Assembly: GCA_016185505.1 (NCBI GenBank)
Contig: JACPNL010000019.1
Location: forward strand, 2,885-66,884
DNA from: Candidatus Yanofskybacteria bacterium
GTDB taxonomy: Bacteria > Patescibacteriota > Minisyncoccia > 2-02-FULL-40-12 > GWA2-44-9
Direction of reading: 5' to 3'
Length of the DNA stretch: 64,000 bases
Every line of letters begins with the position of its first letter. The stretch's first letter is position 1. Shown here piece after piece: positions 3,082-63,367 of the stretch. The notes under the pieces were generated by a model. The model had not been told where the DNA came from. It made no database searches and saw only the letters and a list, made by a program, of their open reading frames with translations. The position numbers and the translations under genes were made by a program.

Positions 3082-3965
3082 AAGTATTGCTACTTCACGG
3101 AGTAATCCGTGATGACAACGCGACTAATAACGGTGGAATCTTAATATTTCTGGATCTGTTGATAGCCATAATTTCAATCGGTCCGTAAATTGTGGTACAA
3201 TTTACTTGAGGACCAGAAACTATTAAGACAATACCGTGGGAAGTCGATCTAAAATTGATCTAGCGTATATGGCCGGTTTTCTTGATGGAGACGGAAGCTT
3301 GATGTTCCAACTCAAGAAACGCAAAGACGGCAAAAAGAAATGGCGGTTTATGTGCACTGTCTGTTTTTATCAAGACAGCAGGCACGATAAGACACTTCAT
3401 TGGATAAGAAGCAAGCTAAATATTGGCTATGTGTCTAAACGCAATGATGGAATGTCAGAGTTGAGAGTAAATGGGTTTAAACAAATCCGAGATATTCTCA
3501 ATGACTTATTGCCATTTGTGAAGTTTAAAAGAGTCCAGGCAAATGCTATGCATAAAGCCACGACCCTTTTGAGCAAAAAGCATAGTGGTCAACTTAATAA
3601 AAATGAACTTATTAGATTAGTTGATTATATTCTAGAAATTCAGAAGAAGAACTATGTAACAAAACGCAAGAAAGGCAGAAAAGAGTTATTATCAATTTTG
3701 GGTTTGACCCCGTAACGACTTGTTCTCGCCAACGGCGGGACGGATAGAAGTTTTTTAGCTTCTATAATATGTCGCTGACCAATGGAGGTTGGAGATTAGA
3801 GATTGGATGTTGGATTTATTCTAACTTCTCATTTCTAACCTCTAACTTCCGTTGGTTAAAGATATAGTCTACACCCGTAGTGATACGGGATAATCAATTC
3901 GCAATTCGCGGCATTCGCATATCATTTGTAGATTTGCATTATGTTGCGAGCGGAGAGAGCATGTG
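3082..3965 (+). other. Group I intron 4 in 23S rRNA (at CCTAGTA^CGAGAGGACC) carrying a LAGLIDADG ORF
   Basis: Exon breaks at ~3081 and resumes at 3966 (ACGAGAGGACCGGG). Contains CGCGACTAATAACGGTGGAATC, CCCCGTAACGAC and a CTAACYTC repeat block at 3781-3860. Confidence 0.55.
3236..3715 (+). CDS. LAGLIDADG homing endonuclease (single-motif type)
   Basis: Motif LAYMAGFLDGDGSLMF. Starts directly after the conserved intron motif ATACCGTGGGAAGT (GTG start, or ATG at 3269). Confidence 0.7.
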   Translation: MGSRSKIDLAYMAGFLDGDGSLMFQLKKRKDGKKKWRFMCTVCFYQDSRHDKTLHWIRSKLNIGYVSKRNDGMSELRVNGFKQIRDILNDLLPFVKFKRVQANAMHKATTLLSKKHSGQLNKNELIRLVDYILEIQKKNYVTKRKKGRKELLSILGLTP

Positions 3966-6121: not shown

Positions 6122-6268
6122 TAAATTATTCTAATTGACCTAATTATTCTAATTATTCTAAAGAAATCCCAATATCAAAATGTCCAATGTCTAAAATTAT
6201 TTAGTTATTGGGTCATTAGGATTTATTTAGGTCAATTAGGTTAATTAGTATAATTAGAATAATTTTCA
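6122..6268. repeat. Dispersed palindromic intergenic element (TAATTATTCTAATT family), copy 1
   Basis: CTAATTATTCTAATTATTCTAAAG...GTCATTAGGATTTATTTAGGTCAATTAGGTTAATTAGTATAATTAGAATAATT. Near-identical copies lie at 29817-29957 and 46100-46350. Confidence 0.6.
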
Positions 6269-14844: not shown

Positions 14845-15086
14845 TCGCTCAAGCCAGCTCAGGGAAGCTCAGCTTCCTCAGCTGGCTCAATCCCACCCCC
14901 ATTTGCCGGCCTATTGGTTACGTCCTTCATCCGGCGTTTTGTAACTGTTCAAGGATCAATAGCTCCACAGAGAAGCTTTCACGAGCCCCCACACTAGTGT
15001 GGGGCAAGTAATATCTGTGGAGCTTTTCTTTTCTTGATTTAAGGTTTTAATACTATATACTTAATACTATATACTTAATACCAATA

Positions 15087-17318: not shown

Positions 17319-17562
17319 GGGGAGTGAGACCGTCAATTAATTTTTAACATTGAAATCCTTTAACAAATCCTTTGATATTTGTTCATAATGCGGATAAAAA
17401 TTCAGCAACCGTTCCTCCCTCCCCAGTTTCAGAAAACTGGGGAGGGATTTTCCGGCTAAATTTTTATTTCCGCCTGCTGGTGGACCGCATTATCTCTCAA
17501 ATATCTTAGTATTTGTGCCAAAGGATTTCAGTTGCTAAAAATTAATTGACGGTCTCACTCCC
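17318..17562. repeat. Long imperfect inverted repeat (~75-bp arms, ~80% complementary) around a central hairpin; MITE-like element or giant hairpin
   Basis: Left arm GGGGGAGTGAGACCGTCAATTAATTTTTAACATTGAAATCC...ATAATGCGG. Right arm CCGCATTATCTC...GTTGCTAAAAATTAATTGACGGTCTCACTCCC. The centre holds the stem CTCCCCAGTTTTCAGAAAACTGGGGAG. Confidence 0.5.
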
Positions 17563-22829: not shown

Positions 22830-24248
22830 ATGTCTAACATATTTCGAGCATACGATGTAAGGGGAGTTTATCCCGACGAACTGAATGAAGAAATTGCGGG
22901 CAAAATTGCCGCTGCTGCGGTTAAATTTTTGAATGCTAAAAAACTGGTAGTAGGGGAGGATGCCAGAATTTCTTCGCCGACGATAAGGGACAAGGTTTTA
23001 AGGGGTATTGTTGCGGCTGGCTGCGATGTTCATTATATCGGCCGATGTACAACTCCGCTTTTTTATTTTTCGGTCAATAACCTTGATGTTGATGGTGGAA
23101 TTATGATTACCGCTTCTCACAATCCACCCGAATATAACGGTCTTAAAATAGTAGGCAAAAAATCAAAGCCGATAAGCGGAGATTCAGGATTAAAAGAAAT
23201 TGAGAAACTGATAGAAATTAAGCCAATAAAGCCCCGTGGGCCACTGGCCTTTACGGGGAAATTAAGCGGACTTCGCAAGTCCATTGGACTTGCGAAGTCG
23301 TTAATCAAAGAAATATCGCTTAACAAAGAATATGTAGATTTTCTGCTCAGCGAATCAAAGGATATTCCCGATAATGGCAAAGATCTCAAAATAGTGATAG
23401 ATGCGTCCAATGGCATGACACCGCTTGTGCTGAATGAACTTTTGCCAAGAACAAAACTCAATGTTTCGCCTTTGTACTTTCAAATAGACGGTACGTTTCC
23501 CAATCATTTGTCCGATACTTCCCGTGAAGAGAACTTGAAAGACCTGAAAGACAAAGTTATTGCCGAAAAAACAGATGTCGGTATCGCCTTTGACGGAGAC
23601 GGTGACCGGATGGCTGTAGTGGATGAAAAAGGAAATATTGTAAGGGCGGATATAGTCGCCGGCCTGATATACAAACATTTTTATGACGGCGATAGGGTTG
23701 TATATGACTCTAGGTTTTCAAGAGCGGTCAGAGATATTTTTGGAGCCAGCGGTATAGCAACAAGGACTGGCCATTCTTTTGGCAAAACAGCAATGAAACA
23801 GAATGATGCCGCTTTCGGCGGAGAGCTTTCCGGCCACTTCTTTTTTAAGGAAATGCTTTACGCCGATGCGGCGATATTGGCGATGCTTCGGCTTGTGGAA
23901 ATGTTGGCAACAGAGAACAAGCCATTATCCCAACTAGTTGCTCCTCTGCTTATCTATGCCAATTCGGGGGAGATAAATATACCACTACCAATTACGAATC
24001 AGTACGAATATACAAATCTACAAATAAAAATTTTAGAAATGTTAAAAAATAAATATCGAGACGGTAAACAGAGTTTTTTGGACGGGATTACGGTAGAGTA
24101 CTGGGACCCCGACGCTCCGGTCGGGACAGGCTGGTGGTTCAATGTGAGATTCTCCAACACAGAACCGATAGTGAGAGTCGTTGTTGAAGCAGATACACAA
24201 GAATTAATGGAAGAAAAAGTTAAAGAAATAACTCAACTTTTACAGTAG
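22830..24248 (+). CDS. Phosphomannomutase / phosphoglucomutase family protein
   Basis: Active-site ITASHNPPEYNGLK and Mg-binding FDGDGDR. Carries an in-frame TACGAAT-family repeat at 23991-24025. Confidence 0.85.
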   Translation: MSNIFRAYDVRGVYPDELNEEIAGKIAAAAVKFLNAKKLVVGEDARISSPTIRDKVLRGIVAAGCDVHYIGRCTTPLFYFSVNNLDVDGGIMITASHNPPEYNGLKIVGKKSKPISGDSGLKEIEKLIEIKPIKPRGPLAFTGKLSGLRKSIGLAKSLIKEISLNKEYVDFLLSESKDIPDNGKDLKIVIDASNGMTPLVLNELLPRTKLNVSPLYFQIDGTFPNHLSDTSREENLKDLKDKVIAEKTDVGIAFDGDGDRMAVVDEKGNIVRADIVAGLIYKHFYDGDRVVYDSRFSRAVRDIFGASGIATRTGHSFGKTAMKQNDAAFGGELSGHFFFKEMLYADAAILAMLRLVEMLATENKPLSQLVAPLLIYANSGEINIPLPITNQYEYTNLQIKILEMLKNKYRDGKQSFLDGITVEYWDPDAPVGTGWWFNVRFSNTEPIVRVVVEADTQELMEEKVKEITQLLQ

Positions 24249-25298
24249 CCCCATTTTCTCTTTCACTTCAGTGAGGGTTTTGTCGGCGAGTTGTCGGGCT
24301 TTTTCTTCAGATGACTCAAGTATTTGGATAACTTTCTTTGGGTCATCTTCAAACTCCTTTCTTTTTGCCTGAAACGGTTGGAGGAAATTAACTACGACTT
24401 CGGCCAGGTCATTTTTGAAGTCAACGTAGGATTTGCTTTCGTATTGGTTTTCTATTTCCTTAATACTTAATACTTGCTTCTTAATACTATCTTGGGAAAG
24501 TAGGTGATAGATGGTGAGCAAATTTGAAATTGCCGGCTTTTCTTTCTCGTCGTATTTAACTTCTTTGTCGGAGTCGGTAACGGCTTTCTTTGTTTTTGCT
24601 CGAATAATATCCGGAGTATCAACAAGGAAAATACAACTTTCGTCTCCCGCTTGTCCTGAGCTTGCCGAAGGGGTTTTAGACATCTTCTGTGTCGGATCTT
24701 TGAGCGACATTATGCGGGCACCCTCTGCTAAATGCGGCTTTACTGGCTCAAACACCTCACCAAACATAGAATTGAATTTCTTGGCGATTTCATTGGTTAG
24801 ATCTATGTGGGGTAACTGATCTTCACCGACGGGGACGAGATTTGATTTATAAATCAAAATATCGGCCGCCATTAAAACCGGGTAATCTAACAAGCCCACA
24901 TGATTATATTTAGGCGCTTTGGCTAGCTGTTCCTTATATGTTGGCAGGCGGTCTAACCAACTGACCGGCGTAACCGTATTGAAAAGCCACGCGAGTTCCG
25001 TGTGTTGGGGGACTTTTGACTGGCGGATTAGCAATGCTTTGTCGGGGTCAATTCCCGCGGCGAGATAATCCAAAACCACATCCATTATCTGCTGTTGGTA
25101 TGTCTTGGGATCGTAAGGGGTAGTGATTGCGTGGTAGTCAGCAACCATAAAAATTACCTGTGCGGGCTTTGCTGTGCCCTCCGAAGCTTTATGCGAAGGA
25201 GGGTCCTGCAATTCCATCCAATTCTTTATCGCCCCGAGATAATTGCCAAGATGTAATTTCCCGCTCGGACGGATGCCCGAAAATACTTTTAATTTCAT
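24240..25298 (-). CDS. trpS: Tryptophan--tRNA ligase
   Basis: Class I HIGH-type motif (GKLHLGNYLG) and a KMSKT motif, with typical TrpRS N-terminus and length. Contains a small low-complexity insertion, SASSGQAGDES. Confidence 0.85.
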   Translation of the reverse strand: MKLKVFSGIRPSGKLHLGNYLGAIKNWMELQDPPSHKASEGTAKPAQVIFMVADYHAITTPYDPKTYQQQIMDVVLDYLAAGIDPDKALLIRQSKVPQHTELAWLFNTVTPVSWLDRLPTYKEQLAKAPKYNHVGLLDYPVLMAADILIYKSNLVPVGEDQLPHIDLTNEIAKKFNSMFGEVFEPVKPHLAEGARIMSLKDPTQKMSKTPSASSGQAGDESCIFLVDTPDIIRAKTKKAVTDSDKEVKYDEKEKPAISNLLTIYHLLSQDSIKKQVLSIKEIENQYESKSYVDFKNDLAEVVVNFLQPFQAKRKEFEDDPKKVIQILESSEEKARQLADKTLTEVKEKMGLL

Positions 25299-25356
25299 AA
25301 TAAGTATTATATACTAAATTTTAGTTTTTTACAGTTTAATAGCGAGGTAGGGAAAG

Positions 25357-25788
25357 GTGGTAAAAATTCCCAAGATAGTCCAGAAAGAAATCGAGCTTCT
25401 TTTAAGAGGTAAACGAAAAACCAGGAAAGAGCCGATACAAGTTAACCGCGAAGAGTTAGTGAAGAGAGCATTAAAGGTTATTGAACTTATAAATGAAATT
25501 GCTCGGATAGATCTTGTTAAAAAATACTTAGCCCTAATGGACATCAAGATTTTTGGCCATCATCCGTGGAATATTGTTATTACTGGCCTTGGAGCAATTC
25601 CTGGTTGTTATGCCAGATTTGATATAGACAGGTACATGGAACATAAGAGGGATTATGTTGAGATGAAGAATAGAGATTCTTTTCACTTTTGGAGCATAGA
25701 CGAACTCGATCGATTTTCCAGTTTAACCGAGAGACAAATATGGAAAATAATTCTTGAATGGGTTCAAGCTCATCGCGAAAGAATTTAA
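25357..25788 (+). CDS. Hypothetical protein
   Basis: 143-aa ORF in an AT-rich islet. No family recognised. Confidence 0.45.
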   Translation: MVKIPKIVQKEIELLLRGKRKTRKEPIQVNREELVKRALKVIELINEIARIDLVKKYLALMDIKIFGHHPWNIVITGLGAIPGCYARFDIDRYMEHKRDYVEMKNRDSFHFWSIDELDRFSSLTERQIWKIILEWVQAHRERI

Positions 25789-25880
25789 CTCTCTATGCAC
25801 ACAGTATACTAGCGGGCAACTAAGCTCGCTTTTGTTTTTTATTATTCGCTACTCCGCCTCACTACCTACCATATTTGCTA

Positions 25881-25914
25881 TTACACAAATTTATCATATG
25901 ATAAATTTGTGTAA
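25881..25914. repeat. 34-bp perfect palindrome TTACACAAATTTATCAT|ATGATAAATTTGTGTAA
   Basis: Exact reverse-complement symmetry. A near-identical 42-bp perfect palindrome, CTTATTACACAAACTAATCAT|ATGATTAGTTTGTGTAATAAG, lies at 26539-26580 on the other side of the ORF at 26051. Confidence 0.6.
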
Positions 25915-26050
25915 TCAAAAAAGAGATGAAAAGAAAACAAGTTTTTGCAAATAAACTTCTTAAGGTCCTTGTTGTCGGAGGAGAGTAGTTACTATCGCGG
26001 CAGTTAACCCGTTCTTCGGTCTTCTGGCTGCTAAGGTAATTGAAGAGGAG

Positions 26051-26500
26051 TTGAAAAAGAGAAAGTGGCAAAGATTTAGACGGGACTTATATTACTTAAA
26101 GCGTCGGGGCTTTATTGAAGCTAATCAAAATCTAGACGGTTCCTATTTGGTAAGGGTTACTTCTACCGGAAAGCGGCAGGCCAGGAAATACGAGTTGGAT
26201 GATATTGTCATAAAGAGTCCTAAAAGGTGGGACAAGCAATGGCGGTTAGTAATGTTTGATATTCCAGTTGTCAAACAAAAAGGAAGATTGGCTCTGTTGT
26301 CTAAATTGAAAAATCTTGGATTTATAATGCTTCAGAAAAGTATTTGGACGCATCCTTTTGAATGTCAGAACGAAGTCGCTGTTTTGGCTAGGGCTTTTGA
26401 GGTTGATAAGTACGTTCACCAACTTACTTGTGATAATATTTCAGCAAGAGAATATTTAAAGAATGAGTTTGAAAAAAGAAACAACACAAAATTGAGTTAA
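26051..26500 (+). CDS. wHTH plus Cas2/VapD-like-fold protein (PaaX-like architecture?), hypothetical
   Basis: N-terminal winged-helix-like region (LYYLKRRGFIEANQNLDGSYLVRVTSTGKRQARKY), then WRLVMFDIP...GRLALLSKLKNLGFIMLQKSIWTHPFE, which resembles the Cas2 beta1 / loop / GxxxQxSVF pattern. Confidence 0.45.
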   Translation: MKKRKWQRFRRDLYYLKRRGFIEANQNLDGSYLVRVTSTGKRQARKYELDDIVIKSPKRWDKQWRLVMFDIPVVKQKGRLALLSKLKNLGFIMLQKSIWTHPFECQNEVAVLARAFEVDKYVHQLTCDNISAREYLKNEFEKRNNTKLS

Positions 26501-26538
26501 AGATTAGCATTACCTTTTGTTAATTAAACCAGTTAAGT

Positions 26539-26580
26539 CTTATTACACAAACTAATCATATGATTAGTTTGTGTAATAAG
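26539..26580. repeat. 42-bp perfect palindrome, partner of the one at 25881
   Basis: CTTATTACACAAACTAATCATATGATTAGTTTGTGTAATAAG. Confidence 0.6.
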
Positions 26581-26621
26581 TAGTCAGGTAAAGAGGTAAG
26601 AGGCGATAAGAATATTATTGG

Positions 26622-28541
26622 TTATACCTCTATAACTACCGGTAGTACCATCGGCCTTCTTTGGGTTTTTTGGAACAGGAAGAGGCCTATCTGGTTGCGG
26701 ATCTGGTCTTTCAGATAGGCAAAATCATGCTTGTGGCCCGGCGGTTTATGGTCTTCGATGATGCGTCTTATTCTTTTCCTTATTTCCATTAGCAGTTCCC
26801 GATTCTCTTTCAGATAAATAAATCCACGCGATATGATGTCGGGGCTGGTTTTGACTTTACCCGTGCTTGAATCAATGAGTGTGACTATGGTGACAAACCC
26901 GTCCTCGGACAATATTTGCCTGTCGCGCAAGACGACATTGCCTATATCACCGACTCCGAGACCGTCAACGAACACGTAATCAAACGGTGCTCGTTCTTTG
27001 TCAAACCAGAATTTATCTTTTTCCAAATTTACTATAGTGCCGTTATCGGCGATTATCACATTTTCTTTCGGTATGCCTTCTTCGTTGCCGAGAAAACCGT
27101 GATTGACCATCATTGAGTATTGGCCGTGGATGGGCATTAAGAATTTGGGCCTTATCAATTTTAACATCGTACGCAGGTCTTCTTTGTTCCCGTGTCCGCC
27201 GGCGTGAATATCCATCATTCGGTAATTATATACTCTGACGCCGTTGCGATAGAGCTGGTCTTTAAGGAATTGGACGTTCCTCTCATTGCCCGGTATGACC
27301 GACGAGGAGAAAACGAAAGTGTCATGTTTGCGGGGAAGAATGTATCTGTGCTCGCCGTTAGCGATACGCATAAGTACGGCGTTGCCCTCGCCTTGAGCGC
27401 CGGTGCAGATGACGGTCACTTTTTCTCTCGGATAGTTATCAATCTCGTCCATGCTTATCTGGGTACCCTTTTGCATTTTGAGGTAGCCAAGTTTTTTGGT
27501 TATTTCAACGTTACTTTTCATTGAATAACCGTCGACGACGACTTTTCGGCCAAATTTTTCAGATATCGTGATTGTCTGCTGGATGCGGTTTATCAGAGAA
27601 GCAAATGTGCCGATAATGAGCATTCCGGTTGCTTCAGTGAATATTTGTTCCAGATTTTTGGTTATGTCCTGTTCGGACAAAGAATGGCCCTCATTCTCCG
27701 CGCCGGTAGAATCAGACATCATCAGAAGAACTTCTTTATTGTCGCCCATTCTTTGCATTTCTTCTATCTGGGCCGGTTTGTCATTCACGGGTGTCTCGTC
27801 AAACTTAAAGTCGGATGTGTGAACTATCTTGCCAAGAGGCGTGGTTATGACTATCTGAAGGTCATCAGGGATACTGTGGCTGACGCGCAGAACTTTGACC
27901 GAGAGCTTGTCGCTTATTTTTATCTCGTCCCCGGCTTCTATTTGGATTATGTTAACTGGTTTCCTGCCCTTGTACTCTTCAAGGCGCTTTATGATGAGGG
28001 CTCTTGTCAGGGCGGCGGCGTAGAAGTCGGGGTCGCCGATCTTGTCAAGGACGAAGGGGAGAGCGCCAGTGTGATCCATGTGGCCGTGGGTAAAGAACAT
28101 CGCTTTGATCATATGTTCTTTGCCTCGTAGATATCCGACATTTGGCAAGATAAAATCAATGCCCGGCATTTGCTCGTTTGGGAAACTTATGCCGGCATCT
28201 ATGAGAATTATCTCGTTGTCATATTGGATGGCCGACATATTCCGGCCGACTTCGCCAAGTCCGCCGAGGTGGACTATCTTAAGACCGCCGACCTTTTCTT
28301 TTTCGGCTTCTTCTCCGCCATAAGCGGACCCGCCTCCGACGGGACCTCTTCCTAAGACCTTAACTCTGCGCACAGTGGGTTTCATCCATCGGCGCTTTGC
28401 GTCTCTTTCTTGCCTGCGGGAGCCGTCTCCCGGTTTTCTATAATTTCGACCATGAGTTCCAGAAGCTGTGCCTCTGGAAGGGGTTTCTTTGGCAGAAGCA
28501 AGGATTGCTTCGCCTTGAGAAGTATTATTGTTTTGTTCCAT
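26622..28541 (-). CDS. rnj: Ribonuclease J (beta-CASP metallo-beta-lactamase) with a basic N-terminal extension
   Basis: FTHGHMDHTGALP zinc motif plus beta-CASP / RNase J C-terminal domains. The first ~90 residues are Arg/Lys/Gly-rich. Confidence 0.9.
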   Translation of the reverse strand: MEQNNNTSQGEAILASAKETPSRGTASGTHGRNYRKPGDGSRRQERDAKRRWMKPTVRRVKVLGRGPVGGGSAYGGEEAEKEKVGGLKIVHLGGLGEVGRNMSAIQYDNEIILIDAGISFPNEQMPGIDFILPNVGYLRGKEHMIKAMFFTHGHMDHTGALPFVLDKIGDPDFYAAALTRALIIKRLEEYKGRKPVNIIQIEAGDEIKISDKLSVKVLRVSHSIPDDLQIVITTPLGKIVHTSDFKFDETPVNDKPAQIEEMQRMGDNKEVLLMMSDSTGAENEGHSLSEQDITKNLEQIFTEATGMLIIGTFASLINRIQQTITISEKFGRKVVVDGYSMKSNVEITKKLGYLKMQKGTQISMDEIDNYPREKVTVICTGAQGEGNAVLMRIANGEHRYILPRKHDTFVFSSSVIPGNERNVQFLKDQLYRNGVRVYNYRMMDIHAGGHGNKEDLRTMLKLIRPKFLMPIHGQYSMMVNHGFLGNEEGIPKENVIIADNGTIVNLEKDKFWFDKERAPFDYVFVDGLGVGDIGNVVLRDRQILSEDGFVTIVTLIDSSTGKVKTSPDIISRGFIYLKENRELLMEIRKRIRRIIEDHKPPGHKHDFAYLKDQIRNQIGLFLFQKTQRRPMVLPVVIEV

Positions 28542-29816: not shown

Positions 29817-29957
29817 AATTATTCTAATTATTCTAATTGCTCTAATTATTCTAAATAATACCCAATATCTAATTTCTGAATGTCTAAAAAATATTTAGTC
29901 ATTTAGTCATTAGGATTTATTTAGGTCAATTAGGTTAATTAGAATAATTAGGTTAAT
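29817..29957. repeat. Dispersed palindromic intergenic element (TAATTATTCTAATT family), copy 2
   Basis: ATTCTAATTATTCTAATTGCTCTAATTATTCTAAATAATACCCAATATCTAA...GTCATTAGGATTTATTTAGGTCAATTAGGTTAATTAGAATAATTAGG. Confidence 0.6.
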
Positions 29958-32553: not shown

Positions 32554-33981
32554 TTATGATAGCGCTTTTTGGTGACGGTGTCTATAATAAGCTATTGCGA
32601 ACCGATGAGCTTCGGCATCAATATGGAGGATTAAATTGCGGACATCGGCCGGGAGTTTTGACAAAGAGATCGAATTTTTATTGCCGGCTACATAAATTTT
32701 ACTACCTCGGTGTCTCTCGTCCTTGGTTAAGGCAATGATCCCAAGATATTGGTTAATTGTTAATTGTAAGTTGTCAATTATTGAACGCGCCGCGTTCAAC
32801 TGCGCTTTTCCGCCATCTATTAATATCAAGTCAGGCAATGGCCACTCCGGATGGCTAAATCGGCGAGAGAGTATTTCTTTAAGCATACCAGTATCTCCTC
32901 CTACTGCGCTACCCGCTACTGCGCTACTGCGCTGTTTGATTTTGAATTTCCTGTACCCGCTCTTACTTGGTTTTCTGTTTACAAATACCGCCATTGCTCC
33001 AACGGCGTATTTGCCTTGAATATTAGCCACATCATAACCCTCAATGCGGTGCGGTACGTTTGACAGCTTAAATACCCTCCTTATTTGTTTCAAAGTATCC
33101 TTGTATTGATATTTTGATATATCAATAGATTTTATAATTTGAGCATTTTCAAAGACGTGCTTTATTTTTTCTATTTTGTTGCGTAATTCGATCGCTTCTT
33201 CGAACTCTTCTTTCCGGCCTAAAGCAATCATTTCTTTTTCCAGTTTTTTAAGCAGAGATGTCTTCTTGCCATTTAGGATATCTTTTATTGCCTTTACGTT
33301 TTTCTGGTAACGATTCTTTAATTCTACGAAATTATCATATGATAATTTCGTAGAACGATTTAATATATTCGTGGTTTTCAAGCAACAAATGCCGGGGCAC
33401 TTGCCTATATGATAGTTCAAGCAGAAGTTATTGTGGGGTTTCTTGCAAGTGCAGTAGGGGAATATTCTTCGCAGGTAGAGCAGAGTCGTCTTTAGTGCTC
33501 CAATATCTGTAAATGGTCCGATAAATTCGGCTTTAAAATTTTTACATTTTGAATTGTCATTTTGCATTTTGATTTTTGCATTTTGATTTTTTGTTGGCTG
33601 ATGTGTGATAAATATTTTGGGGTATGTTTCTTTTGTAAAGCCGACAAAGCCGAACTGCTTGTCGTCGCGGAGCATTATATTGAACGCTGGCTTGTATCTT
33701 TTTATGTACTGCGATTCCAATATCAGGGCCTCAATTTCGGAGTCGGTTTCAATGGTCTTAATTCTTTTTGCCAGGGAAACCATTTTCTGGAGCCGTGTAT
33801 CCGCGGTTTTTACATATTGCTTGATTCGATTTTTCAGATTTGACGCTTTGCCGATGTACAAATTCAGACCCGAAATATTTTTGAATAAATACACGCCGGG
33901 CTTAGCGGGTATTTTCCGCATTAATTTTATAAGATGGCTGCTTGTCATGATTAGGGCAATATTATAATATGTTTTTAGCAA
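32554..33981 (-). CDS. uvrC: UvrC-like excinuclease (shortened) carrying two in-frame repeat insertions
   Basis: GIY-YIG N-terminal (PGVYLFKNISGLNLYIGKASNLKNRI), Cys-rich CTCKKPHNNFCLNYHIGKCPGIC, and endonuclease-domain LILIDGGKAQLNAA. At 475 aa it lacks the usual C-terminal HhH region. In-frame repeats lie at 33541-33600 (AAAATG family) and ~32890-32940 (GCTACTGCG tandem). Confidence 0.8.
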   Translation of the reverse strand: MLKTYYNIALIMTSSHLIKLMRKIPAKPGVYLFKNISGLNLYIGKASNLKNRIKQYVKTADTRLQKMVSLAKRIKTIETDSEIEALILESQYIKRYKPAFNIMLRDDKQFGFVGFTKETYPKIFITHQPTKNQNAKIKMQNDNSKCKNFKAEFIGPFTDIGALKTTLLYLRRIFPYCTCKKPHNNFCLNYHIGKCPGICCLKTTNILNRSTKLSYDNFVELKNRYQKNVKAIKDILNGKKTSLLKKLEKEMIALGRKEEFEEAIELRNKIEKIKHVFENAQIIKSIDISKYQYKDTLKQIRRVFKLSNVPHRIEGYDVANIQGKYAVGAMAVFVNRKPSKSGYRKFKIKQRSSAVAGSAVGGDTGMLKEILSRRFSHPEWPLPDLILIDGGKAQLNAARSIIDNLQLTINQYLGIIALTKDERHRGSKIYVAGNKNSISLSKLPADVRNLILHIDAEAHRFAIAYYRHRHQKALS

Positions 33982-42614: not shown

Positions 42615-43685
42615 ATGGGGGCTTTTTATTACCGCTTCCATGCTGTACTCTATAGTTTGAGCATGTATTTGCGCGACTCTATTTTAGCGACCATTCTTTA
42701 TTATAATTCTTTTAATTTTCCGCTTACTTTTGCGGAGGTTTTTAAGTATCTTATAAATCCGCAAAGATTGAGGTTAAACCTCAATCAAGGGAGGATATTA
42801 AGGTCAGACTTCAATGAAAGGAGGTCTGACCTTGAATTTGGAGCGGCGGAGATTGCCGTCGAGTTGGAAAATATGGCCAGGGTAGATCTTATAGGTCATA
42901 AGAATGGGTTTTATTTTTTACCCGGGCGGGAAGATCTTTACGAAAAAAGAATAGAGAAAGACAAGTTGGCAAACAGAAAATGGAAAAAATTTCTCTCTAT
43001 AGCCAAATATCTTCAATTCGCGCCTTATTTGGGAGCTGTTTTTGCAAGCGGTTCTTTGGCGGCCAATAATCCCGAACCGAAAAGCGATTTTGATGTTTTC
43101 GTAATTGTTAGATCTGGTCGGCTTTATACCGGACGATTTTTCTTATGGCTGATCTCGTCGGTCCTTGGAGCCAGGCGTGGCCGGTTTGATGTCGTTGCTC
43201 CCGACAAGCTTTGCTTCAATCACTACTTAACCGACGATAATCTCGAATTGTCTCATCGCGGTCTCTATATCGCGCAGTCGCTTGCGAACATGAGGCCGGT
43301 CATTATGTCCGACGGGGTCTTGGAAAAATTCATAATATCAAATAAATGGGCCAGTTCTTATTGTTATAATTTAAGGCAGACAAGTTCCTACAGGAATGTA
43401 AAACCAAATAAAATTATGATTTCGACGGCTAGAATTTTTGAGTTGTTCCTAGATAATTTTGTCGGCGATTTATTGGAAAAAATCTTAAAAATTATCCAGC
43501 AAAAAAGAATAAAGAAAAACCCCGCTACTTACGAATCCGGCGGGCGGATTATTTTTAATGACAAGGAGCTTGAGTTTCACCCTCGTTCTTTCGAAAAAGT
43601 GGTTATTGATAATTATAACAGCGGACTCAAAAAGTTCGGCATATTGGGAGTCGAAGAAAAGGATTCGGGTTTGACCTGTGGATAA
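42615..43685 (+). CDS. Hypothetical protein with a minimal nucleotidyltransferase (Pol-beta-like) motif
   Basis: GSLAANNPEPKSDFDVFVIV fits the GS-x(9-13)-DhD NTase signature. Confidence 0.4.
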   Translation: MGAFYYRFHAVLYSLSMYLRDSILATILYYNSFNFPLTFAEVFKYLINPQRLRLNLNQGRILRSDFNERRSDLEFGAAEIAVELENMARVDLIGHKNGFYFLPGREDLYEKRIEKDKLANRKWKKFLSIAKYLQFAPYLGAVFASGSLAANNPEPKSDFDVFVIVRSGRLYTGRFFLWLISSVLGARRGRFDVVAPDKLCFNHYLTDDNLELSHRGLYIAQSLANMRPVIMSDGVLEKFIISNKWASSYCYNLRQTSSYRNVKPNKIMISTARIFELFLDNFVGDLLEKILKIIQQKRIKKNPATYESGGRIIFNDKELEFHPRSFEKVVIDNYNSGLKKFGILGVEEKDSGLTCG

Positions 43686-43801
43686 ACGACTTGCGAAGTC
43701 GTTTATCCACAGGTTGCTTTGTAATGTCGTTACGCTGTGTTGATTTCTCTTTGGATTGTGGTAGCGTTGGATAAAGTTCATTAACTACAAGAGGCAAAAT
43801 A

Positions 43802-47994: not shown

Positions 47995-48037
47995 AAACTA
48001 AAAAATAAAGTAATTTAGAAATTGAGAAATAAAGACT

Positions 48038-48080
48038 CAAAACACGGCCACCAAGCCGTGTTTTGAGTTTAAATTTTTTT
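48038..48080 (+). terminator. Rho-independent terminator after groEL
   Basis: CAAAACACGGCCACCAAGCCGTGTTTTGAGTTTAAATTTTTTT. Confidence 0.6.
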
Positions 48081-48176
48081 GTTGCAATATTTACACGATC
48101 GTTGAATTATTGCAACTTACATCATTCTCATATTCTTGAGAATATGAGAATGATGTAAGGAGGGTCAAGGGTGTTC

Positions 48177-48614: not shown

Positions 48615-48881
48615 CTCGCGCTTTTTTGTTTAAATTTTTTTGTTGCAATATTTACACGATCGTTGAATTAGTATCAACAGCCCACTTCCTGGCCGGGTTG
48701 TTGAAGGGACGTTGACATAAAGTTGTCCATAGATTATAATCCATACATAATATGGCTGACATATTTAAAAACGCCATAAACAGCGCTAAAACGCGTTTTA
48801 AAACCCACAAAATAGCCAACAATCTATAATCTAAAGAGCGGCGTTATCGCCGCTCTTTAGATTTGTGTTATTGTAATAATA

Positions 48882-50570: not shown

Positions 50571-50671
50571 CTTGCTCAACTTTTAGCGTACGCTAAAAGT
50601 TGAGCAAGGGGCCGATACTTGATAAATTGTTCAATTTGGGATATTGCTGATGTATTATTCCGGGGAGGTCT

Positions 50672-57300: not shown

Positions 57301-57429
57301 CAAAAATTCAATATACCCGGGATGGGTGTTCAGTTCTTTATTCCGTTCGTGGGTTTGCCCGCCCAGATGACGTGGCGGCTGGAAGATAAGAGGTTGATAC
57401 CGACTTTCTATGTTGCTATGCCCTGGTAG
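54349..57429 (+). CDS. Large exported multidomain protein: HExxH zincin-like N-domain, TolB-like beta-propeller, C-terminal Omp85/BamA-like motif
   Basis: Signal peptide ...LGLAINSAYAQ; HELAHEF plus FHEGGAEF. Repeated TolB-type blades (SWSPDGSKMAFF, SPSFASNGESLVFSA, SWPSWSDDGSTIVYASDE). The C-terminus FGGPEFGRGAEYGG...MELRFPIP...VRAFLYDDMAVA...GMGVQFFIPFVGLP...YVAMPW resembles the Omp85 barrel signature and ends in an aromatic residue. The start codon is uncertain. Confidence 0.7.
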   Translation: MRIKSVFLIPLVVGRVKQRGRHATLRCWLPCPVLCFALVLGLAINSAYAQLGQFGKNNVRYNQLDKFYKSYRFDVRHNLDTNDPVQKEYLEMVVANLENARDRMSGQQFYNHTIKKRIPIFLYKTHADMESSNLVGGFLPEGVGAFVECGRRREVLKADFSKPLSRAIGVHELAHEFQCDILDPGFVDKVMNNRRPLWFHEGGAEFIAGLYEPHTRDDIRRDGQRIASSDRHFIPTWEACNQGRANPYSECEMIFELLEEKFSAGVAFQVQGFKQIKVGLGELLYDLTKGELGNPDVDSEKFNQGITRFWMDKYEDEFNARPKPDEKNDNFEGRLVMPWGHSAPMSSPRVSLDGKQLAVFTVFKYGVGLGKYEIPKDKIYVSKEEREKLADANQAFGPNGHELVNLTPQLPPIPWEGVISQLETWSFNGFDESWSPDGSKMAFFAKTKDHALMLIDAETGDVLRKIELPLDQAFSPSFASNGESLVFSAAKDTTRDIYMIKLESGEFENLTKDARYDTAPQFSSVEGKVVYVGSDGDFQHLFLMDLSNGNDRITIEQLTFGDFNDSWPSWSDDGSTIVYASDEADGIWNLYTLELSTRTVRQWTEFLLGSKTPVFAKGTTDTVYHVSAAEDTQSGGVFDKVFEAKLKKPIREYTVRDTGSAGTYVFNPSRDLIKFELDENQLLNPTPAPEQWECGGGEVAFGASTYWGIVSQGFVRCSNILETKHHLGRYVSYYGINIFDYSNINQEKRTTWLWGISHNQMPLSYRHYDIAKRFPKQPILNRTWVKESSLNLSAAYPFSKFKRLELYSKLRHRSFANVLNPDELSVDDLQVKRFLDNSTGSNFVFGTAYVRDTVLSSGNTWGPFHGNALRAQIEFAPPLGEEFQGYTSVNISGRTYRHLGSNSLFAGRVDLMANTRANGDYILFGGPEFGRGAEYGGIICNQCAYASMELRFPIPGTYLLGAPVRAFLYDDMAVARFSDERFPVQKFNIPGMGVQFFIPFVGLPAQMTWRLEDKRLIPTFYVAMPW

Positions 57430-57469
57430 AAATTAAGAAATTCAGAAATAAAGACATTAAGTAATTAGT

Positions 57470-57535
57470 GAGGTCGAACCTCCCTCGGGAGGTTCGACCC
57501 CTAACCCTCGCTCTTGCGGGGGTTTTTAATTAATG
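57470..57535 (+). terminator. Tandem hairpin terminator
   Basis: GAGGTCGAACCTCCCTCGGGAGGTTCGACCCC followed by CCCTCGCTCTTGCGGGGGTTTTT. Confidence 0.5.
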
Positions 57536-58351: not shown

Positions 58352-59730
58352 TGACTAAAACATTGCGTCTTTCATTTGTTTCCTATCTCCTAATTCCTAT
58401 CTCCTGTTTCCTGCTTTTGTCCGGTTGCGCCGGCAAAAAGATCAAAATAGACCCGAGTAACCCCGTTTATGGGCCAAAGAACGATTTTGAACGAGATTAC
58501 GGTTTCTTTATTACTCCGGATGAGAAGAAAAACGGTTATGCCGCGGGGTTTTGCCTCGGGTTGGCGAGACCGGAAACGATTCAACCGTTTAATGAAATTG
58601 ACACACTGGCAGAGTTTCGCAAGTTTGAAAAATGCTTCTGGGATATACGGGATACTAATACGCAAACTTCGCAGAATGAATTTAAGGTGTTGATCGACGG
58701 CCGACTCAAAGATATCGAAAACGAGATCTTTGCTTCTGATATTGATATTCCGGGTACGCGTTTTCAGGGTCCCAGCGGCGGCCTGAAGGGGGACTTGGCC
58801 CATGTTTATCTGCTCTGGGGCGCGCCTGCGCCGGGCAATAAAGCAAAATTGAATAAGGGCAGTTATCATACCGAATTGACGGTTTGGTATTATTTTTTCA
58901 ACAACAGGGTTTTATTCAGTTTTCTCTTCTATAATGATCATGGCCGAGTCCGGTTGTTTAAGGAATATGGGGCCTTGTTTGGGCTGGATCTTTTTGATCC
59001 GCTGGCTTCTCCTTTGCGATTGATCGGCAATCGGCCGGCTAATACACGGGAAGAGATGATGGAGATTTGGAATGAACTTGAATATAATGATCCGGAAGAA
59101 ATATTTAGAAACGCTTTGTTTAGATTCTCGTCCTACAAGGACTGGGTGGTTGAGAACGGAAACGGCAAAGACAAATTTGGGGCTATTGATCCTCCCATAC
59201 CGATAATGCTGGCCGCGAAACGGTTTAGGCCAACAATTTTAGGTCAGCCGAATATCCCCGAAGGAACGGAGTTGTTCGAAAACGGGTATCACTCGTTTAT
59301 TCCGGTAGATCTCCAGATCGCCGCCGATCCGATCGGGGGCAGACCTTCTTTCTCGTTTACGGTGGCTTATGCCGACCTGGACTGGGAGGTTAAAGATAAA
59401 ACAGCCGAAGCGGTTCTGAATGTCAGGATCAGTTTTCAAAATAAGAAAACCCGAGCTCTGGATGAATTTGAAACCAGGGTAGTATTTAAGGGGCCGCGGC
59501 AAGCCGTTGAGTCCTTGATTCGCGGAAAGAATCCCAAAACAGGCGAACCAAATTCCAGAACAGTTGATCTGAATGGGATGATGAATTTTGCGGCCGGTAA
59601 GGATCAAGCCACTCTGCGCCAGTTGATCGATGGATTTGAACAGAGCGAGTATGTGGTCAATATCTACTTCCAGCACACTCTCACTAAGAAATACAATACT
59701 TGGCGAGAAGAGATAGAAATTAAGAAATAG
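58351..59730 (+). CDS. Hypothetical lipoprotein
   Basis: Signal peptide plus lipobox LLSGCAG; 459 aa. Start overlaps the previous stop (ATGA). Followed by the terminator GAAATTCCCTGCGGGGAATTTTTT at 59756-59782. Confidence 0.5.
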   Translation: MTKTLRLSFVSYLLIPISCFLLLSGCAGKKIKIDPSNPVYGPKNDFERDYGFFITPDEKKNGYAAGFCLGLARPETIQPFNEIDTLAEFRKFEKCFWDIRDTNTQTSQNEFKVLIDGRLKDIENEIFASDIDIPGTRFQGPSGGLKGDLAHVYLLWGAPAPGNKAKLNKGSYHTELTVWYYFFNNRVLFSFLFYNDHGRVRLFKEYGALFGLDLFDPLASPLRLIGNRPANTREEMMEIWNELEYNDPEEIFRNALFRFSSYKDWVVENGNGKDKFGAIDPPIPIMLAAKRFRPTILGQPNIPEGTELFENGYHSFIPVDLQIAADPIGGRPSFSFTVAYADLDWEVKDKTAEAVLNVRISFQNKKTRALDEFETRVVFKGPRQAVESLIRGKNPKTGEPNSRTVDLNGMMNFAAGKDQATLRQLIDGFEQSEYVVNIYFQHTLTKKYNTWREEIEIKK

Positions 59731-59884
59731 AGAAATTTAGATATTAAGATATTAAGAAATTCCCTGCGGGGAATTTTTTCTGGACATTTTTTATGCATTG
59801 GTATATAATTGAATAACATTTAAATATTCAGGCATCTCAAAGGGACCAAAAGTCCTTTATAATAAATACTTTCTTAAGTATTAG

Positions 59885-63332: not shown

Positions 63333-63367
63333 AAATCAGCCCCGATTGGGGCTGATTTTATTTTTGG
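63333..63367. terminator. Bidirectional hairpin terminator between convergent rpoD and mscS
   Basis: AAAATCAGCCCCGATTGGGGCTGATTTTATTTTT. Confidence 0.5.

What the first reader, a model, noticed from the sequence alone, without database searches (positions are those of the whole stretch)
25300..26620. Two-gene islet flanked by near-identical 34- and 42-bp perfect palindromes; one gene encodes a wHTH plus Cas2/VapD-like-fold protein
Between the convergent housekeeping genes trpS and rnj lies an AT-rich insert with two plus-strand ORFs (143 and 149 aa). Exactly two long perfect palindromes lie 25 bp downstream of the first ORF and 39 bp downstream of the second: TTACACAAATTTATCAT|ATGATAAATTTGTGTAA and CTTATTACACAAACTAATCAT|ATGATTAGTTTGTGTAATAAG. 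They share the half-site TTACACAAA-N8-CAT. The second protein pairs a winged-helix-like N-terminus with a segment (WRLVMFDIPVVKQKGRLALLSKLKNLGFIMLQKSIWTHPFE) that follows the Cas2/VapD beta-alpha-beta pattern, a PaaX-like architecture. The palindromes have no GC stem and no T-tract, so they look more like operator or recombination sites for that DNA-binding protein than like terminators. The pair could delimit a small mobile or regulatory cassette.
Basis: partly seen in the sequence, partly recalled or inferred. Interest (0 to 1): 0.6.

Follow-up and report, generated by a model that had tools for sequence, protein, structure and literature searches.

The report
Palindrome-flanked PaaX/Cas2-like regulator gene cassette
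A small DNA-binding protein gene of an uncultured ultra-small bacterium lies between two long perfect DNA palindromes that are most likely its own binding sites, and the same unit recurs across many related bacteria, each lineage with its own palindrome sequence, an arrangement my literature searches did not find described.

Summary
The two palindromes are real: 25880-25915 (18+18 nt) and 26539-26580 (21+21 nt), both with no loop. The palindromes flank one gene, not a two-gene islet. That gene is a 190-aa wHTH + Cas2-like protein of the PaaX family, frameshifted in this assembly. The fold claim holds: Pfam PaaX_M E=8e-19, and the best Foldseek match is E. coli PaaX, followed by Cas2 and VapD. 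In 80 homologous loci across Patescibacteria, loop-less perfect palindromes are about 77-fold enriched within 200 bp of this gene, while ordinary looped terminator hairpins are not enriched. The upstream and downstream copies match within a locus and differ between loci. Positions that differ between the two copies are mostly changed on both arms (31 against 15). In the window's clade the upstream palindrome carries the gene's -10 element at its centre. Solo copies lie upstream of dnaJ and thyX in relatives. Close relatives have empty sites, so the 780-bp unit comes and goes. Best reading: paired autoregulatory operators of a short PaaX-like repressor; E. coli PaaX also binds a 39-bp inverted repeat. 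What keeps the palindromes perfect, what the downstream copy does, and why the Cas2 catalytic Asp is invariant all remain unexplained. I rate it a new variant of a known kind, of moderate to high interest.

The parts
25357..25788 (+). ORF1, a 143-aa hypothetical protein. It neighbours the cassette but is not part of it.
   Evidence: It has no Pfam, NCBIfam or PADLOC match. Only 5 homologues were found; the two that carry a source name are Yanofskybacteria. Relatives L089 and L090 have ORF1 between trpS and rnj without the cassette. Other relatives have non-homologous small ORFs in its place.
25811..25841 (+). Intrinsic terminator of ORF1: a 7-bp GC-rich stem with a 6-nt loop, followed by TTTTGTTTTTT.
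   Evidence: Found by the terminator scan. RNA fold energy is -11.7 kcal/mol. The element is conserved in L082, L003 and L089.
25842..26621 (+). The 780-bp segment that is present here but absent at the same site in relatives L089 and L090. This is the cassette: spacer, palindrome A, gene, palindrome B, spacer.
   Evidence: By-eye comparison. In L089 the T tract of the ORF1 terminator directly abuts the rnj stop codon. No palindrome remains at the empty sites.
25874..25902 (+). Putative sigma-70-type promoter of the PaaX-like gene. The -35 element TTTGCT/TTGCTA lies at the left edge of palindrome A. The -10 element TATGAT (25897-25902) lies at the dyad centre.
   Evidence: Found by the promoter scan. 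The same arrangement, TTTACT-17 nt-TATGAT, is conserved in L082, L003, L084 and L085, with TTGATT-17-TATGCT in L001. This is an inference; no transcript data exist.
25880..25915 (.). Palindrome A: 18+18 nt, perfect, zero loop. Proposed operator overlapping the gene's promoter.
   Evidence: It is identical in L082, L083 and L088, and identical as a solo site in L087.
25926..25988 (+). 5' fragment of the PaaX-like gene (MKRKQVFANKLLKVLVVGG, then E-stop). The frame is broken by a 2-nt insertion at 25983-25984.
   Evidence: tblastn places residues 1-19 of P0002 at 100% identity on 25926-25982. The alignment with L082 and L003 shows GGAGGAGAGTAG here against GGAG--GGGTAG there.
25985..26500 (+). 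The rest of the PaaX-like gene (residues 20-190): wHTH plus a Cas2-like PaaX_M domain.
   Evidence: Pfam PaaX_M E=1.4e-18. Homologues of 190-192 aa. Structure prediction and fold search. The residue D111 of the FDIP motif is invariant in 82 sequences.
26539..26580 (.). Palindrome B: 21+21 nt, perfect, zero loop. It shares the half-site TTACACAAA-N5-CAT with palindrome A. Proposed second operator, with no promoter.
   Evidence: The orthologous copy in L081-L083 and L088 differs by changes on both arms. No -35-like hexamer is present on either side, from direct reading of the sequence.

Best explanation
The unit is a self-contained regulator cassette. It consists of one gene for a short (190 aa) PaaX-family protein, with an N-terminal winged helix and a C-terminal Cas2-like dimerisation domain, bracketed by two copies of that protein's own long palindromic binding site.

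Proposed mechanism. A dimer binds palindrome A. Palindrome A carries the gene's -10 element at its dyad centre and its -35 element at its left edge, so binding blocks RNA polymerase and the gene represses itself. Palindrome B, about 660 bp away and just past the stop codon, is a second operator with no promoter. It probably strengthens repression through cooperative binding or DNA looping, or it insulates the convergent rnj gene. Further copies of the same palindrome near other genes in relatives (dnaJ, thyX) suggest small regulons. Each paralogue or lineage has its own palindrome sequence.

What is shown: the anatomy; the protein fold; the specific, family-wide association of gene and palindromes; the match between copies within a locus and the differences between loci; and the presence/absence of the cassette among relatives.

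What is inferred: that the encoded protein binds the palindromes; the promoter assignment; repression; and looping.
For: (1) Protein. It matches PaaX_M. The best structural match is E. coli PaaX 8a39, aligned over 187 columns, followed by the PaaX-like 3kfw and 3l09, then Cas2 and VapD.

(2) Precedent. E. coli PaaX represses its own promoter Px and binds TGATTC-N27-GAATCA, a 39-bp inverted repeat of the same overall size as these 36-50-bp palindromes (PMC9493321).

(3) Specific association. In 80 homologous loci, perfect palindromes with arms of at least 12 nt were counted. Within 200 bp of the gene (31.6 kb in total) there are 35 loop-less and 3 looped. Elsewhere (487 kb) there are 7 loop-less and 35 looped. 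All 11 close homologues examined have both copies.

(4) Sequence relationships. Upstream and downstream copies are 78-100% identical out to position 14 and 72-94% at positions 15-17 from the centre, and the sequences differ between loci. Paralogues within one MAG have different palindromes.

(5) Symmetry runs through the exact centre, with zero loop. This fits a dimer on double-stranded DNA rather than an RNA hairpin. Mismatches in decayed copies show no G.U bias: 10 G.T, 7 C.A and 21 other.

(6) Promoter. The conserved arrangement -35(TTTACT)-17 nt-TATGAT has its -10 at the dyad centre of the upstream copy. In the rpoC-site clade the downstream copy has CAATTG at the centre instead, which removes the -10.

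(7) Solo sites with the same core. L094 786-839 lies 44 nt upstream of dnaJ. L087 9999-10042 lies between tmk and thyX.

(8) The wHTH region varies between family members while the Cas2-like domain is strongly conserved. This is expected if DNA specificity diverges while the dimer core is kept.
Against: No binding data exist.

The palindromes are perfect over 36-54 bp, including positions that differ between the two copies of one locus: 31 changes on both arms against 15 on one arm. There is also an apparent one-base insertion mirrored on both arms (L084 against L092). Contact by a protein alone does not require this. It points to an additional symmetrising force, such as template-switch 'palindrome perfecting', cruciform formation or hairpin function.

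A second operator downstream of the regulator's own gene is unusual.

In clades whose centres are GCCATGGC, GCGATCGC or GCTATAGC, the promoter geometry is different and was not resolved.

The L087 solo site lies upstream of the likely thyX promoter rather than over it. It could also be a scar left by deletion of a cassette.

The invariant Cas2-type Asp is not needed for a plain repressor.

The gene is frameshifted in this assembly, yet both palindromes remain perfect.
Confidence: 0.6

Rival explanations
1. The palindromes are the ends or recombination sites of a small mobile cassette. The wHTH/Cas2-like protein, or a host recombinase, recognises them and moves the 0.7-0.8 kb unit between intergenic sites.
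For: The cassette shows presence/absence among close relatives. It is present at trpS-rnj in the window, L081-L083 and L003, but absent there in L089 (rnj 93% identical) and L090. It is present at rpoC-ftsK in L084, L092 and L093, but absent there in the window (ftsK 90% identical to L092). Other sites include def-priA (L091) and pgm-ychF (L043). Several paralogues can occur in one genome. The Cas2 catalytic Asp is invariant.
Against: The breaks in homology lie about 20-50 bp outside the palindromes, not at their edges. Empty sites retain no solo palindrome, which recombination between the two copies would leave. No clear target-site duplication is seen. No recombinase or transposase gene travels with the cassette. 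Paralogues within a genome are old and divergent, with different palindromes, so there is no sign of recent copying. None was found on viral contigs. The site types (trpS type against rpoC type) have distinct palindromes, which also fits ancient paralogues with differential loss.
Confidence: 0.13
2. The palindromes act as hairpins in RNA or in extruded DNA. They would be 5' and 3' stem-loops that stabilise, terminate or insulate the transcript, acting as bidirectional terminators or roadblocks between convergent genes, independently of the encoded protein.
For: Both fold into very stable hairpins as RNA: -17.3 kcal/mol for A and -24.6/-25.0 kcal/mol for B on the two strands, with z-scores of -7 to -10. 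Changes on both arms are the classic signature of a selected secondary structure. Palindrome B lies between the convergent PaaX-like and rnj genes, where no other terminator is seen. The centre GC-NATN-GC would form a GC-closed tetraloop.
Against: 35 of the 38 gene-adjacent palindromes are symmetric through the centre, which a hairpin loop does not require, whereas hairpins elsewhere in the same loci have loops of 1-8 nt. There are no T tracts. There is no G.U enrichment. A generic hairpin function does not explain why this one gene family carries them, nor why the two copies in a locus share their sequence. If the conserved promoter is real, only the right arm of palindrome A is transcribed. 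There is no Rfam match.
Confidence: 0.14
3. The Cas2-like domain is an active nuclease and the palindromes, or cruciforms extruded from them, are its substrates. The system would be a selfish, addiction-like or defence-like nuclease/target pair rather than a regulator.
For: D111, Q136 and S138 are 100% conserved in 82 sequences. D111 aligns with the FDMP Asp of E. faecalis Cas2. E. coli PaaX, recalled from memory, lacks this Asp. The centre is conserved: C at position +/-3 in 46 of 48 half-sites and G at +/-4 in 33 of 48. PADLOC gives weak Cas2 hits.
Against: The gene's own flanks would be cut. No partner gene (antitoxin, cas1 or CRISPR array) is nearby. Scores against the Cas2 models fall below their curated cut-offs. 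These conserved residues are also structural in Cas2 folds.
Confidence: 0.06
4. The two palindromes are chance matches or ordinary terminators that happen to resemble each other.
For: The window holds other long perfect palindromes at gene ends.
Against: The pattern is expected 0.00 times in shuffles. There is about 77-fold enrichment across 80 independent loci. The pair is conserved in relatives.
Confidence: 0.01

Closest known systems
PaaX, the phenylacetyl-CoA-responsive repressor of the paa catabolon (E. coli, Pseudomonas; PDB 8a39, 3l09, 3kfw)
   Same: Both have an N-terminal winged helix followed by a Cas2-like central domain (PF20803), and PaaX is the best structural match. PaaX represses its own promoter and binds a long inverted repeat, TGATTC-N27-GAATCA, 39 bp overall. 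That size is comparable to the 36-50-bp palindromes here.
   Different: This protein is about 190 aa against about 305-316 aa. It has no PaaX_C domain, which the cited review describes as binding the phenylacetyl-CoA inducer. Its TIGR02277 score is 27.9 against a cut-off of 264.55. No paa genes are nearby. It keeps the Cas2-type Asp. Its sites are perfect palindromes along their whole length and occur as a pair bracketing the gene. The family is confined to Patescibacteria in the loci recovered.
Cas2 (CRISPR adaptation protein) and the VapD toxins
   Same: The C-terminal half has the same ferredoxin-like beta-alpha-beta-beta-alpha-beta fold. The motif around the end of beta1 (FDIP, with an invariant Asp) and the QxS motif align with Cas2.
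   Different: It is fused to a wHTH. No cas1 gene or CRISPR array is present. Scores fall just below the curated Cas2 cut-offs: PF09827 19.5 against 23.8, and TIGR01573 23.6 against 24.5.
REPtrons (a RAYT gene flanked by REP palindromes)
   Same: A single gene is bracketed by palindromic elements whose sequence is specific to the gene's clade, and occasional additional copies occur elsewhere in the genome.
   Different: There is no HUH/Y1 transposase. The palindromes are perfect, have zero loop and are 36-54 bp long. Only 2-3 copies were seen per stretch sampled (4-12 kb loci and this 64-kb window), not hundreds.
Paired or auxiliary operators with DNA looping (deo, gal, lac) and symmetric bidirectional promoters
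   Same: There are two like operators several hundred bp apart. In this clade a -10 element sits at a dyad centre.
   Different: Here the loop would enclose the regulator's own coding sequence. The operators are much longer and exactly symmetric.

Membership tests
PaaX family (Pfam PaaX_M, PF20803) | The central Cas2-like domain scores above the Pfam gathering threshold. | tested here: met
   67.9 bits against a cut-off of 24, E=8.2e-19. The full-length relative P0002 gives the same result.
PaaX proper (TIGR02277 equivalog; phenylacetate regulator) | A full-length match that includes the C-terminal PaaX_C domain. | tested here: not met
   TIGR02277 scores 27.9 bits against a cut-off of 264.55. 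Pfam finds no PaaX N- or C-terminal model. The protein ends about 20 residues after the Cas2-like domain.
PaaX proper | A genomic link to paa catabolic genes and a response to phenylacetyl-CoA. | tested here: not met
   The neighbours are trpS, rnj, pgm, rpoC, ftsK, def, priA and dnaJ. The ligand response cannot be tested here.
PaaX-type DNA recognition | A dimer binds a long inverted repeat of about 39 bp that overlaps its own promoter. | tested here: inconclusive
   Inverted repeats of 36-54 bp lie at the right place, and the precedent comes from PMC9493321. Binding itself was not tested.
Cas2 | A ferredoxin-like fold with a conserved Asp at the end of beta1. | tested here: met
   The AlphaFold2 model has strands and helices in the order beta-alpha-beta-beta-alpha-beta with pLDDT above 90. 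Foldseek matches Cas2 chains with probability 0.99-1.0. D111 is 100% conserved and aligns with the FDMP Asp of 5xvn_E.
Cas2 | A score above the curated family cut-off, and a setting within a cas operon or CRISPR array. | tested here: not met
   PF09827 scores 19.5 against 23.8, and TIGR01573 scores 23.6 against 24.5. No cas1 gene was called among the neighbours and no CRISPR-like array is present in the window.
Intrinsic (Rho-independent) terminator | A GC-rich stem, a 3-8-nt loop and a downstream T tract. | tested here: not met
   The scan does not call either palindrome, whereas it does call the ORF1 terminator at 25811-25830. The stems are AT-rich, the loop is zero and there is no T tract.
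Transposable element (IS or MITE-like) | Terminal repeats exactly at the element boundary, a target-site duplication, a transposase, and near-identical copies. | tested here: not met
   The boundaries lie 20-50 bp outside the palindromes and no clear duplication is seen. There is no transposase domain. Paralogues are divergent.
REPtron (REP/RAYT) | An HUH Y1 transposase gene flanked by REPs that are also dispersed in many copies. | tested here: not met
   The protein is of PaaX/Cas2 type. The motif occurs twice in the 64 kb window. Only rare solo copies were seen.
Known RNA families (Rfam 15) | A match at or above the gathering score. | tested here: not met
   Only sub-threshold hits to miRNA hairpin models were found, about 21-26 bits against thresholds of 54-139.

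The most novel reading that the evidence does not exclude
The cassette may be more than a repressor with operators. A Patescibacteria-wide family of wHTH-Cas2 proteins with an intact Cas2 active site would act on, or help maintain, perfectly symmetric palindromes or cruciforms that bracket their own genes. This could work through structure-specific binding or nicking that drives homogenisation of the arms and occasional relocation of the 0.7-0.8 kb unit. That would make it a new kind of selfish or semi-mobile regulator element, and a living intermediate between Cas2 nucleases and PaaX repressors.
Probability: 0.12. Interest if true: 0.85.

Novelty: new variant of a known kind. Interest (0 to 1): 0.6.

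Why it matters
Very little is known about gene regulation in Patescibacteria (CPR), as far as I am aware. This family is large: 4291 clusters at 50% identity with E<=1e-3, and 2264 with E<=1e-10. Each member comes with its presumptive binding site written twice next to the gene. That gives hundreds of natural protein/DNA specificity pairs from sequence alone. It also gives a way to predict regulons in uncultured organisms; the solo sites at dnaJ and thyX are first examples. The exact symmetry, maintained by changes on both arms, may report a palindrome-perfecting mutational process in these repair-poor genomes. It may instead indicate a function that depends on cruciforms. The invariant Cas2-type Asp bears on how PaaX repressors and Cas2 are related.

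Tried and rejected
The correct spacing is N5.
- I looked for a second PaaX-like gene in the window and found none.
- I tested whether ORF1 or other small upstream ORFs travel with the cassette. They are mutually non-homologous, and ORF1 occurs without the cassette. I therefore rejected the two-gene unit.
- Annotation of ORF1 with Pfam, NCBIfam and PADLOC gave no match; PHROGs gave one non-significant hit (E=0.098).
- No relatives were found on viral contigs.
- Rfam gave nothing at threshold.
- A test for RNA-wobble bias in imperfect copies showed no G.U excess.
- I tried to read a protein/DNA recognition code from the alignment. Similar proteins have similar outer boxes, but this cannot be separated from shared ancestry.
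- I considered whether the conserved centre GC-N-AT-N-GC is simply a -35 element (TTGCNA). I rejected this as the sole explanation, because the near-invariant C falls on a position that does not match the -35 consensus.
- Literature searches for PaaX/Cas2/wHTH, PaaX-like in Patescibacteria, and perfect palindromes in CPR found no description of this arrangement.
- The MAFFT alignment of the filled and empty rpoC-ftsK sites misplaced the right flank. I read those boundaries by eye.
Full report
**What is in the window**

The region between trpS (24240-25298, minus strand) and rnj (26622-28541, minus strand) holds two plus-strand ORFs and two perfect palindromes with no loop.
- Palindrome A is 25880-25915: ATTACACAAATTTATCAT|ATGATAAATTTGTGTAAT.
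- Palindrome B is 26539-26580: CTTATTACACAAACTAATCAT|ATGATTAGTTTGTGTAATAAG.

The shared pattern TTACACAAA-N5-CATATG-N5-TTTGTGTAA occurs exactly twice in 64 kb, and none is expected from shuffles. The region has about 36% GC against about 45% in the flanks. By its best protein matches, the window comes from a Candidatus Yanofskybacteria MAG.

**Anatomy, corrected**

ORF1 (25357-25788) has its own intrinsic terminator at 25811-25830 plus a T tract. Palindrome A lies 92 nt after the ORF1 stop and ends 10 nt before ATG 25926.

That ATG is the real start of the second gene. Homologues are 190-192 aa and begin MKRKQVFANKLLKVLVVGG. The window matches residues 1-19 at 25926-25982 and residues 20-190 at 25985-26497. 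A 2-nt insertion (GGAGGAGAGTAG against GGAG--GGGTAG in relatives) breaks the frame. The deposited annotation therefore shows only the 149-aa tail (P0003). Whether this is a real pseudogene or an assembly error cannot be decided here.

The two palindromes therefore bracket one gene, not a two-gene islet.

**The protein**

- Pfam finds PaaX_M, described as the "PaaX protein central Cas2-like domain", at E=8e-19. Cas2 itself scores just under its threshold.
- An AlphaFold2 model built from 16 homologues has pLDDT above 90 over residues 100-190. The secondary structure there runs beta-alpha-beta-beta-alpha-beta. The winged-helix N-terminal half is less confident.
- Foldseek against the PDB returns E. 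coli PaaX (8a39, E=2e-5, 187 aligned columns). Next come the PaaX-like 3kfw and 3l09, then many Cas2 chains, then VapD.

Across 82 family members the wHTH region varies, but the Cas2-like domain has invariant W101, D111, Q136 and S138. D111, in the FDIP motif, aligns with the FDMP Asp of E. faecalis Cas2.

The protein lacks PaaX_C. It scores 27.9 against a cut-off of 264.55 on the PaaX equivalog model. It is a short relative of PaaX, not PaaX itself.

The family is large: 4291 clusters at 50% identity with E<=1e-3. In the genome collection, 284 stretches encode a relative, and nearly all of the 80 loci kept come from Patescibacteria MAGs. Several paralogues often occur in one MAG.

**The gene and the palindromes go together**

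I fetched 80 homologous loci and scanned them for perfect palindromes with arms of at least 12 nt.

| Region | Total length | Loop-less | Looped |
|---|---|---|---|
| Within 200 bp of the gene | 31.6 kb | 35 | 3 |
| Elsewhere in the loci | 487 kb | 7 | 35 |

Loop-less palindromes are thus about 77-fold enriched next to this gene. Ordinary looped hairpins, which look like terminators, are not enriched.

Other observations on the arrangement:
- Typical positions are 0-40 nt upstream of the start codon and 0-70 nt downstream of the stop.
- With relaxed criteria and a core search, at least 19 of the 80 loci show both copies, and many more show decayed copies.
- All 11 close homologues examined have both copies (L081-L085, L088 and L091-L094, plus the window).
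- Within a locus the two copies share a half-site. Identity is 78-100% out to position 14 from the centre and 72-94% at positions 15-17, with a dip at positions 5-8.
- Between loci the sequences differ.
- Paralogues in one MAG have different palindromes.

A common design is visible across loci. C sits at position 3 from the centre in 46 of 48 half-sites and G at position 4 in 33 of 48, giving the centre GC-N-AT-N-GC. Positions 5-11 are AT-rich. Beyond them lies a lineage-specific outer box.

**Evidence that the sites act on DNA, at the promoter**

- The symmetry runs through the exact centre. An RNA or DNA hairpin loop does not need that, but a dimer on duplex DNA does.
- Imperfect copies show no excess of G.T over C.A mismatches: 10 G.T, 7 C.A and 21 other.
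- In the window's clade a -35-like hexamer abuts the left edge of the upstream palindrome. It is TTTACT in most loci, TTGCTA/TTTGCT in the window and TTGATT in L001. Exactly 17 nt downstream, the dyad centre reads TATGAT. This holds in six diverged loci.
- The downstream copy has no -35-like hexamer. In the rpoC-site clade its centre is consistently CAATTG instead of CATATG, which removes the -10 element.
- E. coli PaaX represses its own promoter and binds TGATTC-N27-GAATCA, 39 bp overall (PMC9493321). The geometry is the same.

Taken together, the best reading is a pair of operators for the encoded protein, with the upstream one covering the gene's own promoter.

**Solo sites**

- A 54-bp perfect palindrome lies 44 nt upstream of dnaJ (L094 786-839). 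It has the same 24-bp core as the sites flanking that locus's own gene.
- The exact 36-bp palindrome A, extended to 44 bp, lies between tmk and thyX on a 52-kb metagenome contig. No PaaX-like gene lies within 12 kb of it. The same sample also holds the cassette (L087).

These sites fit small regulons. A deletion scar is an alternative explanation for L087.

**The cassette comes and goes**

| Site | Cassette present | Cassette absent |
|---|---|---|
| trpS-rnj | window, L081-L083, L003 | L089 (rnj 93% identical), L090 |
| rpoC-ftsK | L084, L092, L093 | window (ftsK 90% and rpoC 87% identical to L092) |

- In L089 and L090 the order is trpS, ORF1, rnj. The ORF1 terminator abuts the rnj stop codon, so 25842-26621 (780 bp) is the extra segment in the window.
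- For the rpoC-ftsK comparison.
- Other sites are def-priA (L091) and pgm-ychF (L043).

The homology breaks lie 20-50 bp outside the palindromes. Empty sites keep no solo palindrome. No clear target duplication, no recombinase and no recent copies are seen. I therefore rank "mobile-element ends" as a rival, not the main reading. Ancient paralogues with differential loss would also fit, because the trpS-type and rpoC-type sites have different palindromes.

**What stays unexplained**

Where the two copies in a locus differ, 31 positions are changed on both arms and remain paired in both copies. Only 15 are changed on one arm. Between orthologous copies there are changes on both arms (window against L081: CTTA..TAAG against CTCA..TGAG). 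There is also an apparent one-base insertion mirrored on both arms (L084 against L092).

Protein contact alone does not demand this. Three explanations are possible: template-switch "perfecting" of quasi-palindromes (a known mutational process, recalled from memory), selection for cruciform or hairpin formation, or an activity of the protein itself. The role of the downstream copy and of the invariant Cas2-type Asp is also open.

**Comparison with known systems, and novelty**

In mechanism, the cassette most resembles PaaX autoregulation. It is not PaaX proper, not Cas2, not a terminator, not an IS element and not a REPtron (see the membership table).

Searches of the paper library found no description of this palindrome-bracketed arrangement or of this short family in Patescibacteria. 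That library is incomplete, so this is absence of evidence only.

I rate it a new variant of a known kind, with interest 0.6.

Noticed in passing
window 33322-33355: A 34-bp perfect loop-less palindrome (TTCTACGAAATTATCAT|ATGATAATTTCGTAGAA) lies inside the uvrC coding sequence (32554-33981, minus strand; it encodes ..STKLSYDNFVE..). Its half-site matches palindrome A at 13 of 17 positions, including the ATCATATGAT centre. I did not determine whether it is a binding site within a gene or the product of a palindrome-perfecting mutation.
   Followed up: partly
window 50571-50608: A 38-bp perfect loop-less palindrome (CTTGCTCAACTTTTAGCGT|ACGCTAAAAGTTGAGCAAG) starts right after the pyrG stop, upstream of a DAO-family oxidoreductase gene. 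Its GCGTACGC centre recurs in L094 1676-1713, and a related ATCGTACGAT centre occurs in L087 389-426. It may be the site type of another PaaX-like paralogue encoded outside the window.
   Followed up: partly
window 25983-25984: A 2-nt insertion (GA) in a GGAGGAG run frameshifts the PaaX-like gene relative to all homologues. It is either a real pseudogene or an assembly error. The public annotation shows only the 149-aa tail.
   Followed up: partly
window 15047-15081; L084 about 3780-3810: A perfect 14-nt tandem repeat (TTAATACTATATAC, 2.5 copies) lies just upstream of ftsK. It is conserved at the same place in a relative whose ftsK is 82% identical. It may be a regulatory element of ftsK.
   Followed up: no
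window 6124-6161 and 29817-29854; also 57428-57467 and 59715-59761: The same short AT-rich tandem repeats recur in different intergenic spacers: AATTATTCT in about 4 copies at two sites, and AGAAATTA in about 5-6 copies at two sites. Their function is unknown.
   Followed up: no
window 48116-48159, 43674-43714, 48035-48068, 48828-48863, 17416-17447, 57472-57499, 63332-63359: There are many long perfect hairpins (arms of 12-21 nt, loops of 2-6 nt) at gene ends. Several lack clear T tracts. This genome appears to use unusually long perfect stems as terminators.
   Followed up: partly
L081 and L082, 1417-1462: A 46-bp perfect loop-less palindrome (centre GCTAGCTAGC) lies exactly between the convergent pgm and trpS genes in a close relative. 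In the window these two genes overlap by 9 bp and have no such element. It does not fit the C+/-3, G+/-4 centre rule.
   Followed up: no
L089 1-967: The relative that lacks the cassette carries genes resembling a diversity-generating retroelement (bAvd and a reverse transcriptase, RVT_1) next to pgm. The window has ychF at that position.
   Followed up: no
Just upstream of the cassette: window 25357-25788, L081 2596-2865, L092 2377-2808, L094 2641-2910, L085 679-1299: The slot immediately upstream of the cassette is repeatedly occupied by small orphan ORFs (143, 89, 143, 89 and 206 aa) that are not homologous to one another. This suggests a hotspot for gain of small genes.
   Followed up: partly
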